Positions 1 through 6,744 of a DNA stretch of 64,000 nucleotides are shown one piece after another; positions within the stretch are counted from its first letter, which is position 1, and each line of letters starts with the position of its first letter. The notes beneath the pieces are model-generated. The model was not told the origin of the DNA, did not search any database, and saw only the letters and a program-made list of their open reading frames with translations. This DNA is from an uncultured bacterium (GTDB lineage: Bacteria > Krumholzibacteriota > Krumholzibacteriia > LZORAL124-64-63), in assembly GCA_963732385.1 (NCBI GenBank), contig CAVSZB010000005.1, positions 1 through 64,000 on the forward strand, read 5' to 3'. The position numbers were made by a program, and so were the translations under genes.

Positions 1-1122
1 CGGCCAGGCCCCGGACCAGGCCCCCGCCCTCCTCAGCAACTCGGCCCCGATGCGCGCCGCGGCCTGACCATCGCCATAGGGATTCACGGCCCTGGCCATC
101 GCCGCGTACGCCGCTTCGTCGTCGAGCAAACGCTCCGTCTCCCGCACGATACACGCTTCGTCCGTGCCGACCAGCCGCGCCACGCCGGCGACGATCGCTT
201 CCGGGCGCTCGGTGCAATCGCGCAGGACCAACACCGGCTTGCCCAGACTGGGCGCCTCCTCCTGGATGCCCCCCGAGTCGGTGAGAATAAGCGCGCTCTC
301 CTCCATCGCCCACACGAACGACCGGTAATCGAGCGGCTCCGTCAACGTGACGTTGGTCAGCCCGGACAGTGCGTCGATCGCGACCGCGCGGACATTCGGA
401 TTCGGATGCAGGGAATAGACGAGATGGACATCGGGCCGCGCGGCCAGACGCCTCAGCGCGGCGCAGATCGACCGCAGGCCGACGCCGAAGCTCTCGCGCC
501 GGTGCGCCGTCACCAGGATTCCGCGGCGGTCCGCCGGAAACAGCCGCGGCAGCGCCGCCGGTCGCGGCTGGGACAGGACCATCTGCAGGGCATCGATGGC
601 GGTGTTGCCGGTCACCCGGATGTCCTCGCGCCGGACGTTCTCGCGAAGCAGATTGTCGCGCCCGGCGGGGGTCGGGGCGAAGTGCAGGGTCGCCAGCGCA
701 CCGGTCAGCCGCCGGTTCATCTCCTCGGGGTAGGGGCTGTGCGGATCCCCGGTGCGCAGGCCGGCCTCCACATGCCCGACCGGCACGCGACCGTAGAAAG
801 CCGCCAGCGCCGCAGCGAAGGTCGTGGTCGTGTCGCCCTGCACCAGGACCCAGTCCGGCGCGATCCGGTCAAGAAAAGCCTGCACCCCCTCCACCGCGCG
901 GGCGGTAACGCGGGCCAGGCCCTGGCCGGGAGTCATGATGTCGAGGTCGTGCGCGATCCGGATGCCGAAGTGGGCCACGACCTGATCGAGCATGGCGCGG
1001 TGCTGGGCCGTGGCGCAGGTGTAAACCGAGAACACCTCGGGGTGGTCCTCCAGCATGCGGACCACGGGGGCCATCTTGATGGCCTCCGGCCGCGTGCCGA
1101 TGATGACGACAATCTTCAACAT
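1..1122 (-). CDS. wecB: UDP-N-acetylglucosamine 2-epimerase (non-hydrolysing), 3' end beyond window
   Basis: Manual translation from ATG at 1122: MLKIVVIIGTRPEAIKMAPV...VLVQGDTTT...GHVEAGLRT...SPYPEEMNR...TDSGGIQEEAPSLGKPVLVLRDCTERPE; not in the ORF track because it is truncated. Confidence 0.95.
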   Translation of the reverse strand, partial: MLKIVVIIGTRPEAIKMAPVVRMLEDHPEVFSVYTCATAQHRAMLDQVVAHFGIRIAHDLDIMTPGQGLARVTARAVEGVQAFLDRIAPDWVLVQGDTTTTFAAALAAFYGRVPVGHVEAGLRTGDPHSPYPEEMNRRLTGALATLHFAPTPAGRDNLLRENVRREDIRVTGNTAIDALQMVLSQPRPAALPRLFPADRRGILVTAHRRESFGVGLRSICAALRRLAARPDVHLVYSLHPNPNVRAVAIDALSGLTNVTLTEPLDYRSFVWAMEESALILTDSGGIQEEAPSLGKPVLVLRDCTERPEAIVAGVARLVGTDEACIVRETERLLDDEAAYAAMARAVNPYGDGQAAARIGAELLRRAGAWSGAWP

Positions 1123-1228: not shown

Positions 1229-2128
1229 TTGACCGTGCGCCCGCGGGAAGGGCGCCCGTCCGCGCGGAGCGTGATGTCGCAGACCCTGCACTTCGGACCG
1301 GTGGCGCTGGCCTGGCGTTTCGATGCGGACGACCCGCGTTGGCGCCCGTTCCAGGCCGCCTACGCCCCCTGGCTCGACGCGGCGCCCGGCGATCTGGTCG
1401 TCGAAGCCGCGCTGGCCGGGGATCTCGACGACGAGCCCCCGGCGCCCCGCCTCCCCTCCTCGCTCTACCGCGCCCGGCGGGTCAGCGGGCGGGACTTCGA
1501 CCTGGGCGACGGGCTGGTGCGCGGCACGCTCGTGCGCACCGACCTGTGCCGCTGCGTGATCCATCCGATCCTGCTGCGCGGCGTCGGTCTGCGGGTGCTG
1601 GAGCAGTTCTTCTACCTGCTGTTCTACCAGACGGCCCTGGCGGCCGCGGACGCGGAGGCGCTCGCGCCGTTTTTGCTGCACGGCTCGGCGGTGCTGTCCC
1701 CCCGCGGCGCGCACGTGTTCTGCGGGCCGTCCGAGAGCGGCAAATCGACCGCCGCCGGTCACCAATGCGCCCACACGGTGCTGACCGACGAGTGCGTGGT
1801 CTTCTCGCCGGGCGCCGGCGGAATGCGCGCCGCCGGCAGCCCGGTCAACCCGTTCTGCGTCGCGCGGCGTCCCGGCGCCGGTCCGCTCGCCGGCCTCTAC
1901 CTGATCGAGAAGGCGCCGGCGCACGCTCTCCAGCCGATCGGGCGCGCGGAGGCGGTGCCGCGGATCACGGCGGAGATCATGCTGCCGCTCGGTTTGCTCG
2001 AAACCAGCCTGGCGCGCGGCATGGCCCGCGCCCTGGACCGAGCCCTGCTATTGTACGCCGGCGGCGTGGTGCGCAGACTGTGCCTGCTGCCCGACCCCGG
2101 TTTCTGGCCCCTGATCGAGCCGGCCTGA
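1229..2128 (+). CDS. HPr kinase-related P-loop kinase (RiPP-associated type)
   Basis: LLHGSAV...VFCGPSESGKST...LTDECV...GSP motif order typical of HprK-like proteins; start uncertain (later GTG/ATG at ~1271-1274). Confidence 0.75.
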   Translation: MTVRPREGRPSARSVMSQTLHFGPVALAWRFDADDPRWRPFQAAYAPWLDAAPGDLVVEAALAGDLDDEPPAPRLPSSLYRARRVSGRDFDLGDGLVRGTLVRTDLCRCVIHPILLRGVGLRVLEQFFYLLFYQTALAAADAEALAPFLLHGSAVLSPRGAHVFCGPSESGKSTAAGHQCAHTVLTDECVVFSPGAGGMRAAGSPVNPFCVARRPGAGPLAGLYLIEKAPAHALQPIGRAEAVPRITAEIMLPLGLLETSLARGMARALDRALLLYAGGVVRRLCLLPDPGFWPLIEPA

Positions 2129-2149
2129 GCCTGTCGCCGCCTGGAGAGG

Positions 2150-3979
2150 ATGCCCGTGTCGACGTCCACCACCGCCGCCCCTTCCGGAGCCAGCGCCCAC
2201 TCCAGCGCATCAACCGTCCGCACCGGGCTGCGCACGCTCGGGCCGTACATCGGGCGGCTGCGCCACCACCGGCGCGAGGTGGCGCTCGTCCACCTGGTGA
2301 TGCTCGCCTCGACCGCGTTCAGCCTGGCCATCCCCCTGCAGGCGGGGCGCTTCGTGGACGTGCTCGCGGGACGCTTCCCGCCCGACGCGCGCCTGTCCAC
2401 GCTGGTCATCGTCTGCGCCCTGCTTGCCGCGCAGCTCGCCGGCACGTTCATCTCCACGATCGTGGCCGAGCGGCTCCACCTCGACTACATCTCCCGGCTG
2501 CGCAAACGGCTCTTCGCGCATCTGCTGGAACTGCCGAGCCTCTACTACGGCGACCAGCAGGGGGGCGATCTCTCCACGCGGGTCACATCAGACGTGGGGA
2601 GCGTCACCTACATCGCCACCAGCGGCATGGTCACCCTCGCCCGCGCCGCGATCACCCTGATCGGCGCGGTCTGGCTGATGCTGCGCCTCGATGCCGGCCT
2701 GACGCTCGTCATCGTGTCGGTGGTGCCGGCGACCATGCTCCTCGTGCACTCGTTCGGCCACCGTCTCCACCGGCTCTCACGCCGGATGTACGAGGAGCTC
2801 GGCCGGATCAGCAATCACGTGCAGGAGGTGTCGGGCGCGATCCGGGTCATCAAGAGCTACAACAGCCAGGCCCACGAGGCGTCGCGCTTCGACCGTCTGG
2901 TGGACAGCTACCGTCAGGCGGGGCTGCGGCGCGCCATCCTGTCGGCAGCCCTCGAATCAGCCTCGCAGGTACTCCTGTGGATCGCGCTGATCGTGGTGGT
3001 GGTGTACGGCTTCGCGCAGATGACGCGCGGCGTGACGACCCAGGGCGAGTTGGTGGCGTTCTTCCTGCTGGCGTACCGCGTGGCGATGCCGGTGTCGGCC
3101 CTGACCTCGCTCTACGCCTCCGCGCAGGGAGCGGTGGCGGCGGCCGGACGGCTCGACGGCATCCTGGCCGTGCCGGCCGAGCAGCGCCGCGCCGGTTCGC
3201 CCCGCCCGCAGTTCGCCTGTCGCGGGGAACTGGCTCTCGATCAGGTCTCCTTCGCCTACGGCGAGCGGCCGGTCCTGCACGACATCAGCACCCGCATCGC
3301 GGCCGGCGAGTGGATCGGCGTGGTCGGCCCTTCGGGCGCCGGCAAGACCACCCTCACCGGCCTGCTGTTGCGGCTGTTCGATCCCTCCGCGGGATGCCTG
3401 CTGCTCGACGGGCGCCCCTTCGACACCTACGACCTGACCGACCTGCGCGGGCAGATCGCCTACGTTTCGCAGGATCCGGTGCTCTACGACCTGTCGATCG
3501 GCGACAACATCCGCTTCGGCCTCGTCGACGCCACCGACGAAGAGGTGCGTCTGGCCGCGCAGCGCGCGCACGCCCTGGAGTTCATCGAGCAGCTGCCGGA
3601 ACGGTTCGACACCCGCTGCGGCGAACGGGGACAGCGGCTCAGCGGCGGCGAGCGCCAGCGCATCACCCTGGCCCGCGCCTTCCTGCGCAATCCGCGCATC
3701 CTCATCCTCGACGAACCGACCTCCGCGCTCGACGCGCGCGCCGAGGACGCCGTGCACGCGGCGCTGCAGGCCCTGATGGCGGGGCGCACCGCAATCGTGA
3801 TCGCGCACCGCCTTTCGACCGTGCGCGACCTCGACCGGCTGCTGGTCCTGTCGCAAGGCTGTCTCGTGGAGGAGGGGAGCCACGCCGAGCTGCTCGCGCG
3901 TGACGGGCTCTACGCCGATCTGTACCGCATCCAGCACGGGCGCGACGCCGCGCCTGGCCCCCGGGCGAACGGACAGTGA
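2150..3979 (+). CDS. ABC exporter, fused permease/ATP-binding protein
   Basis: N-terminal TM helices; GPSGAGKT, LSGGERQR, ILILDEPTSALD, IAHRLST; no C39 peptidase domain. Confidence 0.95.
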   Translation: MPVSTSTTAAPSGASAHSSASTVRTGLRTLGPYIGRLRHHRREVALVHLVMLASTAFSLAIPLQAGRFVDVLAGRFPPDARLSTLVIVCALLAAQLAGTFISTIVAERLHLDYISRLRKRLFAHLLELPSLYYGDQQGGDLSTRVTSDVGSVTYIATSGMVTLARAAITLIGAVWLMLRLDAGLTLVIVSVVPATMLLVHSFGHRLHRLSRRMYEELGRISNHVQEVSGAIRVIKSYNSQAHEASRFDRLVDSYRQAGLRRAILSAALESASQVLLWIALIVVVVYGFAQMTRGVTTQGELVAFFLLAYRVAMPVSALTSLYASAQGAVAAAGRLDGILAVPAEQRRAGSPRPQFACRGELALDQVSFAYGERPVLHDISTRIAAGEWIGVVGPSGAGKTTLTGLLLRLFDPSAGCLLLDGRPFDTYDLTDLRGQIAYVSQDPVLYDLSIGDNIRFGLVDATDEEVRLAAQRAHALEFIEQLPERFDTRCGERGQRLSGGERQRITLARAFLRNPRILILDEPTSALDARAEDAVHAALQALMAGRTAIVIAHRLSTVRDLDRLLVLSQGCLVEEGSHAELLARDGLYADLYRIQHGRDAAPGPRANGQ

Positions 3980-5203
3980 CGGCCATGCGCCTGCGCCGCA
4001 TCCCCCCGCTTGACGCCGCCGAACGCTACTTCCTGGCGCTGCTGGCAGAGCCCCACCCCCCCCTGCCTCCGGCGGCCGACGAGACGTTCTGGGCCCGCGT
4101 GCTCGACCTGGCCGCGCGGCACCGGCTGGGCGAGTTCCTGCACGTGCGTCGCGCGGCGACATTGCGGGCGGACTGGCCCGCCGCGGCCCGCGCAAAGGCG
4201 CGCCGCTGGTACGTCGAGAACTCACTGCGCAACACCCGCTTCCACACCGAGTTGACGCGGGTGGCCGCGGCGCTGCGCGGGGACGGTCTCGCGCCGGTGC
4301 TGCTCAAGGGGGGCGCGCTGCTGCTGACCGTGTACAACGATCCCGCCGAGCGGCCGTTCGGCGACATGGATCTGCTGGTGCGGCCTGAAGAACTCGAGGC
4401 CGCCGCCGCGATCATGCGGCGACTCGACTACCGGCTGGACGAAGCGTATCAGCCGGAATCGTTCTACCGCGCTCACCACTATCACCTCATCTTCCGGCAC
4501 GCCGCGCGCCCCTGGCTCTGCTTCGAAATCCACTGGGACCTCTCCCTGCCGGTCATGGATGTGACGTTCAACGCCGACGGCCTGCGCCGGCGGGCGGTCC
4601 TCGCCGGGCGCGACGATCTGGAGATCCTCGTCCCGTCGCCGGGCGACGCGCTTCTTTTGCTGGCCCTGCACGCCGGGCTGAACGGTTTCGCCAGACTCGG
4701 CCTGATCCGCGACGTGGCCACCCTCGCCGACACCGATCCGGCCAGGCTCGCGGCCGGCGACCTCTGGCGCGCGGCGCAGATCGGCCGGCTCGCGGTGCCG
4801 TTGGCAACCAGCCTCAACCTCGCGCGGCTCTTCGGCGGGGAGGGGGCGGATCGCCTGCTCGCCGCCCGGCCCCGACCGTGGCACGGCAAGCTATTGCGGC
4901 GGATCCTGCAGACCCGAAATCGTCCTGCGACAGAGTCTGGTGCACTCCTCCGCCGGTGGGAATGCGGCGACGCTGCTGCGCCGGGACGACTGGTCCGGCC
5001 GGCTGGCGCAGCTGCGCCGGATGGTCTGGCCCGACGCCGGGACTCTTGGCATGGCCGGCCACCAGGTCCAGGGACCGGGCGGACTCACCCTCTGGGCCGG
5101 AGGGCGCTATGGGCCGGGCGCACCGCTGCGTTCGGTCATCTGGACCGCGCTGACTTTGACCGGCAGGGAACTGGATCGGGGGGAACACGGCCGGCCGGAA
5201 TGA
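3976..5203 (+). CDS. Nucleotidyltransferase family protein (NTP_transf_5-like), apparent +1 frameshift near 4905-4915
   Basis: VLLKGGAL...RPFGDMDLLV...HYHL...FEIHWDL; protein-like sequence continues in the +1 frame (PEIVLRQSLVHSS...) to the stop at 5203. Confidence 0.8.
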
Positions 5204-5231
5204 TGAGTAAAAATATCCACTGCCCCCCCCC

Positions 5232-5261
5232 TTGACGGTTCTGGGGATTGGGTTATATAAT
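5232..5261 (+). promoter_or_regulatory. sigma70-type promoter for small peptide gene
   Basis: TTGACG (5232-5237), 18 bp, TATAAT (5256-5261) in AT-rich intergenic DNA; GAGGA RBS before ATG 5321. Confidence 0.7.
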
Positions 5262-5320
5262 GATCCTTAGTATGTGAAGTTGGGTGCATTTCAACCCAGA
5301 GCATAATGCGAGGATAAATC

Positions 5321-5524
5321 ATGAATATCAGCGGCAGCGGGCAGGACAGCGGCCTGAAAAAGCCCTACCGCAAGCCCACTGTGGACTCACGAAAATTAAA
5401 GCCGGGCGTCTATGGAGACTACAGCCTCGACCAGAAAATCGGTGGCAGTAACAGTAACGGGCCGGGAAGCGACCAGGGTCGCCCCAGTATCTCCGGTCGC
5501 GGCGACAGCGTGCACCGCTTCTAG
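5321..5524 (+). CDS. Putative RiPP precursor peptide (67 aa)
   Basis: KKPYRKPTV resembles the YxxPxL RRE-recognition leader motif; Gly/Ser/Asp-rich C-terminal half; own promoter and RBS; directly upstream of PqqD gene. Confidence 0.75.
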   Translation: MNISGSGQDSGLKKPYRKPTVDSRKLKPGVYGDYSLDQKIGGSNSNGPGSDQGRPSISGRGDSVHRF

Positions 5525-5550
5525 ACTGCATCGTTTGACGGGACACGTGG

Positions 5551-5590
5551 AATCCTGCCGGTCTCTTTAGGGCTGGCAGGATTTCTTGTT
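5551..5590 (+). terminator. Stem-loop after precursor gene
   Basis: AATCCTGCCGGTC-loop-GGCTGGCAGGATT followed by TCTTGTT. Confidence 0.55.
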
Positions 5591-5622
5591 GCACACGGGA
5601 TTCGCGAACCGGGAGGCGGGTC

Positions 5623-5904
5623 ATGGATCGATGGGGGCCGCAGACCATTCCCAGACGCAACAATGAGGCGGTCTGGCGCGAGGTCGAGGACGAGATTTTC
5701 GTCTGTGCGCCGGACGGCGAGAGCATGCACACGCTGCGCGAAGTGGCGGCCGACATCTGGCGGGCCTGCGACGGCACGAACAGCGTGACCGACATCAACG
5801 CCCTGCTGCTCGAAGCCTACGAGGTCGAGCCGGACGTGCTGAGCGCCGATCTCGAAGCCTGCCTGGGTGACCTGGCGGCGCGCGACCTGCTGCGCGGTCT
5901 TTAA
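5623..5904 (+). CDS. PqqD-family RiPP recognition element (stand-alone RRE)
   Basis: 93 aa: WREVEDEIFV...HTLREVAADIWRACDGTNSVTDINALLLEAYEVEPDVLSADLEACLGDL. Confidence 0.88.
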   Translation: MDRWGPQTIPRRNNEAVWREVEDEIFVCAPDGESMHTLREVAADIWRACDGTNSVTDINALLLEAYEVEPDVLSADLEACLGDLAARDLLRGL

Positions 5905-5970: not shown

Positions 5971-6744
5971 ATGACTGAGACGTCCGCACCCCGCCCGGCT
6001 CGCTCTATTCCGGCCCAGCCGCGCTCAGGGGAGCTGCCCGTGGCCCACACCCGACCTGCCGGCCTGACCGACCGCGGTCTGGCCCGCGCCAACAACGAAG
6101 ATGCCTTCTTCGTCGATCCTCAGGGCCGCCTTTTCGTGATCGCCGACGGGCTGGGCGGCCACGCCGCCGGCGAGGTAGCATCGGGCCTGGTGGTCGACAC
6201 GCTGGCCGCCGCCGCGCCCGGCGCGGCGGCCTGGTCCGACCCCGCGCAGGAACTGGGCGCCATCCTGGCCCGGGCCGACGCCGCCGTGCGCGAACAGGCC
6301 CGCGACGCGCTCACCGGCATGGGCGCAACCGTCGTGGCGATTCACCTCGACCCCACCGTGGCCGCCGTCACCGTCGCGCACGCCGGAGACAGCCGGGCCT
6401 ACCGCCTGCGCGCAACCGCCCTGTCGCGTCTCACGCGCGATCACACCCCGGAGGCCGAAATCGGCTACCGCCCGGACGGCCGCCGCAGCAACATCATCAC
6501 CCGCGCCATCGGCATCGGCGACGGCCGGACCGCAATCGACTTCAGCCGCACCGACCTCCACCCCGGCGACCTTTACCTGCTCTGCAGCGACGGTCTCACC
6601 GACATGGTCCCCGACCCCGGCATCGCCGCCATCCTCGCCCTCGACGCTCCCCCCGCCGACACCTGCCGCGCCCTGGTCGACGCGGCGCTGGCCGCGGGCG
6701 GGCGGGATAACGTCACCGTGGTGGTCGTGAAGATCCCGGCCTGA
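5971..6744 (+). CDS. PP2C-family Ser/Thr protein phosphatase
   Basis: RANNED, IADGLGGHAAGEVAS, HAGDSRAY, LCSDGLTD, GGRDNVT. Confidence 0.93.
   Translation: MTETSAPRPARSIPAQPRSGELPVAHTRPAGLTDRGLARANNEDAFFVDPQGRLFVIADGLGGHAAGEVASGLVVDTLAAAAPGAAAWSDPAQELGAILARADAAVREQARDALTGMGATVVAIHLDPTVAAVTVAHAGDSRAYRLRATALSRLTRDHTPEAEIGYRPDGRRSNIITRAIGIGDGRTAIDFSRTDLHPGDLYLLCSDGLTDMVPDPGIAAILALDAPPADTCRALVDAALAAGGRDNVTVVVVKIPA

What the first reader, a model, noticed from the sequence alone, without database searches (positions are those of the whole stretch)
1229..5904. Orphan RRE-dependent RiPP cluster with only kinase and nucleotidyltransferase as modifying enzymes
Seen: HprK-like kinase, ABC exporter, NTP_transf_5-like nucleotidyltransferase, a 67-aa peptide with KKPYRKPTV, and a stand-alone PqqD/RRE. 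Known: YxxPxL leaders are bound by RREs, and this kinase/nucleotidyltransferase pair tailors paeninodin-type lasso peptides. Here there is no lasso cyclase (Asn synthetase-like), no B2 protease and no radical SAM maturase, and the peptide lacks the lasso Thr(-2)/Gly1 cleavage pattern. Inference: a linear Ser-rich peptide that is phosphorylated/nucleotidylated and exported, possibly an undescribed RiPP class. It sits next to a sugar-nucleotide gene (wecB), so a glyco-link is possible.
Basis: partly seen in the sequence, partly recalled or inferred. Interest (0 to 1): 0.85.

Follow-up and report, generated by a model that had tools for sequence, protein, structure and literature searches.

The report
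Tyrosine-type variant of phosphopeptide (LPP) cluster
This real gene cluster matches the enzyme set of the linear phosphorylated peptides described in 2026, but its peptide family carries a conserved tyrosine where those carry the phosphorylated serine, and its likely leader-cutting protease sits elsewhere in the genome, so it may be a tyrosine-modifying version of that pathway.

Summary
G000 has no lasso B2. The class is not undescribed: it works like the linear polyphosphorylated peptides (LPP; Popov 2026, PMC13381572), and this scan has found LPP-like clusters in other phyla. The cluster is not orphan either: an SpI-type peptidase fused to an RRE lies 334 kb away on the same contig, and 49 of 49 kinase-bearing genomes of the phylum have such a peptidase. 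The Ser-rich tail is not conserved. What is conserved is YxxP...GV[FY]GxY. Its last Tyr lies 18 residues after the RRE-anchoring Tyr, the spacing of LPP's phospho-Ser3: Tyr in 86 of 89 copies and Ser in none. LppK rejects S3Y. Best reading: an LPP variant of Ca. Krumholzibacteriota that phosphorylates, then glycosylates, a tyrosine (0.45). No chemistry was shown.

The parts
1..1122 (-). wecB, UDP-GlcNAc 2-epimerase; edge of a polysaccharide locus that runs off the contig and appears to continue at G000:C8:1 (neighbour, not core)
   Evidence: TIGR00236 E 2e-139; C8:1-7500 holds GT2, GT4 and PGA_cap genes in the order seen upstream in L059
1274..2128 (+). HprK/PEPCK-fold kinase (ScmC-like, LppK analogue); ATG start behind GGAG preferred to the TTG at 1229
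   Evidence: catalytic set H136, K157, D172, E173
2150..3979 (+). MsbA-like ABC exporter without peptidase domain (LppD analogue)
   Evidence: PF00664 + PF00005; TIGR02204 best, below cut-off
3985..5235 (+). NTP_transf_5 protein (LppN/PsmN analogue); DxD motif intact; one extra base at 4912 shifts the last ~96 residues, whose frame ends at 5203
   Evidence: PF14907 E 1.3e-36, residues 34-283; frameshift
5232..5261 (+). sigma70-like promoter TTGACG-18-TATAAT ahead of the precursor
   Evidence: 11 of 12 matches; similar site before the G002 copy, TTGACG also before the C7 copy; consensus match only
5321..5524 (+). 67-aa precursor: YRKPTV RRE motif (5366-5383), GVYGDY (5405-5422, Tyr34 at 5420-5422), hypervariable tail
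5549..5585 (+). 16-pair terminator-like hairpin between precursor and RRE
   Evidence: z -4.86; similar hairpins behind the C7 and G002 copies, z -5.86 and -3.27
5623..5904 (+). stand-alone RRE (PqqD family, LppB analogue)
   Evidence: PF05402 E 3.5e-15; model with precursor residues 10-45 scores 0.82 vs control 0.19
5971..6744 (+). PP2C-type phosphatase, cassette-linked
   Evidence: NF033484 E 1e-50, below cut-off; directly behind RRE/precursor in 9 of 9 cassettes of this layout

Best explanation
An LPP-like RiPP pathway with tyrosine as the modified residue. Shown from sequence: the gene set, the conserved leader YxxPx[LVI] and the invariant GV[FY]GxY. Modelled: the RRE binds the leader and leaves GVYGDY free. 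Inferred from LPP and pseudomycoidin: the RRE presents the precursor, and the kinase transfers one or more phosphates to the Tyr 18 residues after the anchoring Tyr (Tyr34 here). The NTP_transf_5 protein then caps the phosphate with sugar from the neighbouring polysaccharide pathway. An SpI-type Ser-His-Asp peptidase cuts the leader within GV[FY]G; in this genome it is the S26-RRE fusion at G000:C5:339620-340423. The ABC exporter secretes the linear core. The PP2C probably reverses or edits the phosphate. Orphan precursor copies (G000:C7:926908-927096) feed the same enzymes. The biological role is untested; an envelope- or biofilm-linked or signalling glycophosphopeptide is the most likely.
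For: Gene set equals the LPP core, also inside polysaccharide loci (PMC13381572). LPP: Tyr-16 to phospho-Ser3 is 18 positions; here position 18 is Tyr in 84 of 87 copies from 47 genomes (His 1, Cys 1, truncated 1). A leader-only profile that ends two residues earlier found 88 places, 85 with Tyr and none with Ser. 148 of the best 150 of 304 representatives have Tyr. Tyr is 0.7% of tail residues. No Ser/Thr position from 17 to 29 exceeds 19 of 85. In 5 of 47 genomes no copy has Ser after the motif, and in 2 (G134, G154, both with kinase) none has Ser or Thr. Kinase and SpI peptidase occur in the same 49 of 208 genomes; the precursor is in 44 of these and in 3 others, same 18 genera. Fusion keeps GSM/HR/KGD, folds like RRE plus signal peptidase, and has 13 full-length clusters. 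Four of 5 cassettes lacking S26 in cis have the fusion. RRE-leader model 0.82 vs best control 0.19, runs agree in at least 94% of contacts, partner pLDDT at least 61 (mark reached by 51 of 78 solved and 2 of 108 mismatched pairs).
Against: No chemistry was tested. Every characterised kinase of this kind that I read about modifies Ser, and LppK rejects S3T and S3Y. The window's own peptide has Ser right after the Tyr: a cut after Gly would make it Ser3, as in LPP, although Ser is there in only 13 of 85 and 14 of 150. 124 of 150 representatives have a Ser somewhere in the tail, 58 within positions 17-21, and leader position 7 is Ser/Thr in 132 of 150. The Tyr could be a peptidase or enzyme recognition residue. 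The two Ser/Thr-free genomes are 85-90% complete. The 150 representatives were ranked by a profile containing the Tyr. The fused peptidase belongs to the other (type B) S26 clade, not to the in-cis type A clade, so action in trans is inferred. The complex pass may be from memory of solved lasso/LPP RRE-leader structures. The genomes are kin, so co-occurrence is not independent. The NTase may be damaged in this strain.
Confidence: 0.45

Rival explanations
1. The NTP_transf_5 protein, not the kinase, modifies the Tyr directly (O-nucleotidylation or sugar-phosphate transfer); the kinase acts on a nearby Ser/Thr or on a small substrate.
For: Pol-beta-type nucleotidyltransferases such as GlnD and GlnE use Tyr as acceptor (recalled, no call). 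The DxD motif is invariant in 16 NTases. LppN's reaction is unknown, since its deletion had no effect, and PsmN's mechanism is left open.
Against: PsmN acts on the phosphate made by the kinase. The Tyr sits in the kinase's register in LPP. The PP2C suggests a phospho-monoester. Some cores offer the kinase no Ser/Thr.
Confidence: 0.17
2. An ordinary LPP-type Ser phosphorylation: the peptidase cuts after V-Y-G, the Tyr is only a recognition residue, and Ser3 of the core D-Y-S (or another tail Ser/Thr) is phosphorylated.
For: V-x-G fits the (-3,-1) rule of signal peptidases (recalled). It puts the window's Ser35 at +3. Known kinases of the family are Ser-specific. Most tails contain Ser. PP2C enzymes mostly act on Ser/Thr (recalled).
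Against: That Ser is Gly in the G002 orthologue, in the C7 copy and in most members (Gly 53 of 87 rows). LppA core residues 1-5 did not matter for cleavage, so a peptidase role does not explain an invariant core Tyr. Kinase-bearing genomes exist whose copies have no Ser/Thr.
Confidence: 0.25
3. The pathway is decaying or incomplete in this genome (peptidase lost from the cassette, NTase frameshifted), and the S26-RRE fusion serves something else.
For: S26 is absent in cis; extra base at 4912; the fusion derives from the other cassette type; no run held half of the stretch.
Against: The same layout plus fusion is kept in G001, G002 and G008; fusion catalytic residues are invariant; relatives' contigs lack the extra base, which suits an assembly error or a recent change; promoter, hairpin and a second precursor are intact.
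Confidence: 0.09
4. A lasso or radical-SAM RiPP whose core enzyme acts in trans.
For: Some type B loci of relatives pair the same leader family with a radical SAM/SPASM gene and Cys-ending cores. G000 has two Asn-synthetase-like genes and unrelated radical SAM genes.
Against: No B2 in G000, and only 1 strong B2 hit in 61 genomes, outside the family. Both Asn synthetases look like AsnB amidotransferases in other contexts. G000's best rSAM match is distant (118 bits) with no RRE or precursor hit on that contig. The window's core has no Cys.
Confidence: 0.04

Closest known systems
LPP, linear polyphosphorylated peptides of Bacillota: lppA-K-B-S-D-N of Paenibacillus alginolyticus DSM5050 (Popov et al. 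2026, PMC13381572; seen: abstract, first 2 of 12 parts of the text, sections 8, 9, 11, 12, 16, 35, part 1 of 11 of supplement 2, term searches in supplements)
   Same: Discrete RRE, HprK-like kinase, NTP transferase, MsbA-like exporter, SpI-type peptidase with Ser/His/Asp, no cyclase, YxxP leader with variable C-terminus, position in a polysaccharide locus, 18-residue spacing from leader Tyr to the conserved hydroxyl residue.
   Different: Motif GV[FY]GxY instead of FETxxS; Tyr instead of Ser; peptidase absent in cis here and fused to a second RRE in trans; PP2C in the cassette (no PP2C or SpoIIE term in their supplements, though an unnamed 'phosphatase' group co-occurs 27 times); dispersed orphan precursors; phylum Ca. 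Krumholzibacteriota, while the paper calls LPP restricted to Bacillota.
Paeninodin/pseudomycoidin-type lasso clusters: PadeK, ThcoK, PsmK kinases and PsmN (PMC6993621, PMC9266682; passages seen)
   Same: Kinase plus NTP transferase pair, discrete RRE, ABC exporter; precedent for hexose on the phosphate.
   Different: No B2, no macrolactam synthetase, no conserved C-terminal Ser (9 of 86); kinase motif H-K-D-E rather than H-K-D-D.
SynChlorMet (ScmC/ScmD), HPr-rel-A and GeoRSP cassettes of TIGRFAM/NCBIfam
   Same: Relatives of the kinase hit TIGR04249 ScmC and TIGR04352/04355 weakly and carry PF27840 ScmC; the RRE hits their PqqD models weakly.
   Different: All scores are far below the cut-offs; no radical SAM gene in this cassette; the two precursors scanned hit no NCBIfam model.
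Phosphotyrosine cyanobactins, dolichospermamides (PMC12639078; passages seen)
   Same: RiPP with phospho-Tyr, so phospho-Tyr itself is not new in RiPPs.
   Different: PKc-like kinase domain fused to a macrocyclase, relaxed for Ser/Thr/Tyr; no RRE, HprK fold or NTase.

Membership tests
LPP | Discrete RRE that binds a YxxP leader | tested here: met
   PF05402; model 0.82 vs control 0.19, Tyr16 and Pro19 in the interface; binding not measured
LPP | HprK-like kinase | tested here: met
   fold and motifs; LppK itself was not compared
LPP | Uncharacterised NTP transferase | tested here: met
   PF14907; frameshift after the domain
LPP | MsbA-like exporter | tested here: met
LPP | SpI/SipW-like leader peptidase in the cluster | tested here: not met
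   none in the cassette; only S26 match in G000 is the fusion 334 kb away; in cis in 4 of 9 cassettes of this layout
LPP | Precursor consensus YxxPxVLxHQxIxFETxxS with Ser3 | tested here: not met
   YxxPx[LVI] present; GV[FY]GxY replaces FETxxS; Ser at position 18 in 0 of 89
LPP | No macrolactam cyclase or B2 needed | tested here: met
   genome 95.8% complete
LPP | RRE in the LPP clade | not tested
   only a weak phmmer match to 9X8Z (LppB), E 0.1; no tree with LPP RREs
LPP | Polyphosphorylated linear product | not testable with these tools
   needs expression and mass spectrometry
Paeninodin-type lasso peptide | B2 protease | tested here: not met
   PF13471 0 hits in G000
Paeninodin-type lasso peptide | Macrolactam synthetase linked to the precursor | tested here: not met
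   two PF00733 genes, both distant and AsnB-like by N-terminus and context; lasso-cyclase models were not run on them
Paeninodin-type lasso peptide | C-terminal Ser acceptor | tested here: not met
   window peptide ends in Phe; 9 of 86 end in Ser
SynChlorMet / HPr-rel-A / GeoRSP | Scores above NCBIfam cut-offs and radical SAM in the cassette | tested here: not met

The most novel reading that the evidence does not exclude
An HprK/PEPCK-fold kinase has become a dedicated peptide tyrosine kinase. With the NTP_transf_5 protein it builds sugar-phospho-tyrosine on a genome-wide library of hypervariable precursors, the cassette's PP2C makes the mark reversible, and an SpI-RRE fusion processes them in trans. 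That would be a new acceptor chemistry for this enzyme fold and a modular, dispersed RiPP system in an uncultured phylum.
Probability: 0.35. Interest if true: 0.78.

Novelty: new variant of a known kind. Interest (0 to 1): 0.52.

Why it matters
The final LPP product, the reaction of LppN and the biological role are all open. This family gives a natural contrast: the same enzymes, a different conserved acceptor, hundreds of variable cores, a linked phosphatase and a soluble-looking peptidase-RRE fusion. If the Tyr is the acceptor, it is a tyrosine kinase of the HprK fold, which my searches did not find in print, and a tolerant tool for making phospho-Tyr peptides. It also suggests a ruler: position 18 from the RRE-bound Tyr is Ser in LPP, Tyr here, and Cys in radical-SAM-linked relatives. 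If the Tyr is only a recognition residue, the finding is one more out-of-phylum LPP cluster.

Tried and rejected
Pfam/NCBIfam gave no family for the window's kinase or precursor. PF10502 and PF00717 found only the housekeeping-type genes on C7 and missed the fusion; a custom S26 profile found it. The kinase profile against PDB sequences hit only P-loops. No kinase match in plasmids. The peptide alignment was too short for the metagenome scan, so the kinase was used; its 59 loci gave one family precursor (L189) and no complete cassette of this layout. Expression is not shown: no run held half of the stretch; two RNA-library contigs of one study span leader to RRE in a relative about 90% alike, and DNA carry-over is not excluded. 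Eight of 95 profile hits lay in long ORFs and were dropped as chance; one duplicate row was dropped. Literature searches with no paper on this family: 0 papers; listings only, none on it by title or abstract start; GVYG, GVFG and Krumholzibacter absent from 6 LPP supplements; one supplement was too large to read. The cleavage site could not be fixed: after Val, after Tyr/Phe, or after Gly of GV[FY]G are all arguable. LppK, LppS and LPP RREs were not aligned to these proteins. The PP2C link rests on 9 genomes, 8 of them in the query alignment, and may be one inheritance.
Full report
Observation. The window is the start of contig C5 of a 95.8% complete genome. Kinase homologues carry source names of Ca. 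Krumholzibacteriia, which is my only basis for the taxon. The ORFs are as described: kinase-like 1274-2128, ABC exporter 2150-3979, NTP_transf_5 3985-5235, peptide 5321-5524, PqqD 5623-5904. The kinase has no family hit itself, but its model (pLDDT 93.6) matches PEPCK and HprK/P, and His, P-loop Lys, Asp and Glu are invariant in 20 relatives. The NTase carries an extra base at 4912, after the Pfam domain; L002 and contigs of relatives in two DNA runs lack it. Whether this is an assembly error or a strain change is open. A PP2C gene follows at 5971-6744.

What is absent. No B2 protease in the genome; in 61 genomes only 5 had any match and one a strong one, outside the family. The two Asn-synthetase-like genes are remote and AsnB-like. 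The start of C8 seems to continue the locus upstream with glycosyltransferases and no RiPP gene.

What is present elsewhere. G000:C5:339620-340423 encodes an archaeal-type signal peptidase domain (TIGR02228 E 2e-8, below cut-off; GSM, HR, KGD) fused to a PqqD domain. Its model matches lasso RREs and signal peptidases/LexA, and 13 full-length clusters exist. It is the only S26-profile match in the genome. A second precursor copy lies on C7.

Relatives. Two layouts recur in the family. Type A is kinase-ABC-NTase-[S26]-RRE/precursor-PP2C at the polysaccharide locus, in 9 genomes. Four have S26 in cis (G016, G022, G006, G028). Of the five without, four have the fusion (G000, G001, G002, G008) and G025 has an S26 at a contig end. 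Type B is NTase divergent from S26-kinase-RRE, with or without radical SAM and precursor. The fused peptidases form one clade (98/94) among type B enzymes, apart from the in-cis type A clade (26 rows, not all loci), which suits loss of the kinase between S26 and RRE. Among 208 phylum genomes the kinase is in 49, the peptidase in the same 49 plus 2 weak hits, and the precursor in 47, 44 of them shared; all lie in the same 18 genera. These are kin, not independent cases. Close PP2C orthologues (250-389 bits, next 176) occur only in the 9 type A genomes of 91 searched, 8 of which built the profile.

The precursor. An unconstrained scan for short YxxP ORFs in the fetched loci picked out one family in the cassettes. 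Consensus: YxKPx[LVI]xxxx[IVL]x[LIV]GV[FY]GxY, then a hypervariable tail. Counting the first Tyr as 0, position 18 is Tyr in 84 of 87 copies, His in 1, Cys in 1, and missing in 1. To remove circularity I searched 91 genomes with a profile ending at position 16: 88 places, 2 of them new and both with Tyr, so 85 of 88, none Ser. In the 50%-clustered library 304 proteins match and 148 of the best 150 have the Tyr. Ser-richness is particular to this copy: the G002 orthologue has no Ser/Thr after the motif, and 2 of 47 genomes have none in any copy. Against this: the window's copy has Ser at 19, most tails hold some Ser, and leader position 7 is mostly Ser/Thr. The RRE-leader model scores 0.82 against 0.19 for the best control, with contacts at peptide residues 13-26 and 28, leaving GVYGDY outside. 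Similar complexes are solved, so this shows likeness rather than binding. Promoter-like and terminator-like signals flank the peptide gene.

Comparison. Popov et al. 2026 (PMC13381572) define LPP clusters by SpI, discrete RRE, HprK-like kinase, NTP transferase and MsbA-like exporter in capsular polysaccharide loci, with precursor YxxPxVLxHQxIxFETxxS. They showed cleavage after Thr-1 by LppS with LppB, and 1-4 phosphates on Ser3; S3T and S3Y were not phosphorylated, and lppN deletion changed nothing. Tyr-16 to Ser3 is 18 positions, the spacing of the Tyr here. PsmN is needed for hexose on the phosphate in pseudomycoidin. So the cluster works like LPP but fails two membership features: the precursor motif and the in-cis peptidase. 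Phospho-Tyr is known in cyanobactins, from an unrelated kinase. This scan has noted LPP-like clusters in several other phyla (unchecked notes); look-ups by this family's sequences and words found nothing. Supplements I could not see (one large LPP file, and most of supplement 2 beyond term searches) might list Tyr variants.

Mechanism and verdict. Shown: genes, motifs, conservation, co-occurrence. Inferred: RRE presentation, Tyr phosphorylation, sugar capping, cleavage in GV[FY]G by the fusion in trans, export, and editing by PP2C. Odds: kinase on Tyr 0.45; Ser as in LPP 0.25; NTase on Tyr 0.17; decaying 0.09; hidden cyclase or radical SAM 0.04. It is a new variant of a known kind with a sharp, cheap test (Y34F versus S35A). 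Interest 0.52.

Noticed in passing
G000:C7:926908-927096 (L063:6909-7097): Second, orphan copy of the precursor with the same leader, its own TTGACG site and hairpin, and a His-rich tail; also present in G002.
   Followed up: yes
G000:C5:415541-415680, 415068-415517, 411209-412600 (L242): A separate RiPP-like unit: 45-aa hydrophobic peptide starting MTMTFEKP, PqqD-like gene, and a probable B12-type radical SAM gene (label from reading the sequence); same peptide and PqqD in L072 and L078.
   Followed up: no
L039:14911, L050, L051, L052, L054, L056, L062: Next to the type B cassettes a 46-aa signal-peptide ORF ends in TGA followed in frame by [PT]YC in 7 of 7 loci: a likely UxxC selenoprotein. 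No SECIS was sought.
   Followed up: partly
L039, L041, L042, L070, L071, L112, L151, L189: Type B cassettes add a radical SAM/SPASM gene, and their precursors share the leader but end in F.NP.F..CC: a radical-SAM branch of the same family.
   Followed up: partly
L192-L238, L190, L235 (metagenome contigs): Distant kinase-RRE-rSAM-S26-NTase loci have precursors with YxPP...FETTALAC, Cys at position 18 and mostly C-terminal Ser/Thr.
   Followed up: no
L110, L113, L117, L124, L135: Orphan precursors sit beside a conserved operon that looks like dissimilatory sulfite reductase dsrAB (name recalled, not scanned) in five genomes.
   Followed up: no
L159, L161, L162, L164, L165, L126, L132, L147, L129: In many family members the polysaccharide locus keeps only ABC exporter + precursor, while NTase, S26, kinase and RRE lie at a second locus.
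   Followed up: partly
L034:1885-1947 (G028): Cassette precursor stops right after GAFGS, before the Tyr; the genome has a second full copy.
   Followed up: partly
G000:C5:about 426000-433921: Contig end with different codon use and genes that look alphaproteobacterial by eye: possible chimera or contamination.
   Followed up: no
window:7285-16314: Methyltransferase and a heme biosynthesis run (hemG/H/N/E/L-like by eye) with a two-component pair follow the cassette in several relatives.
   Followed up: no
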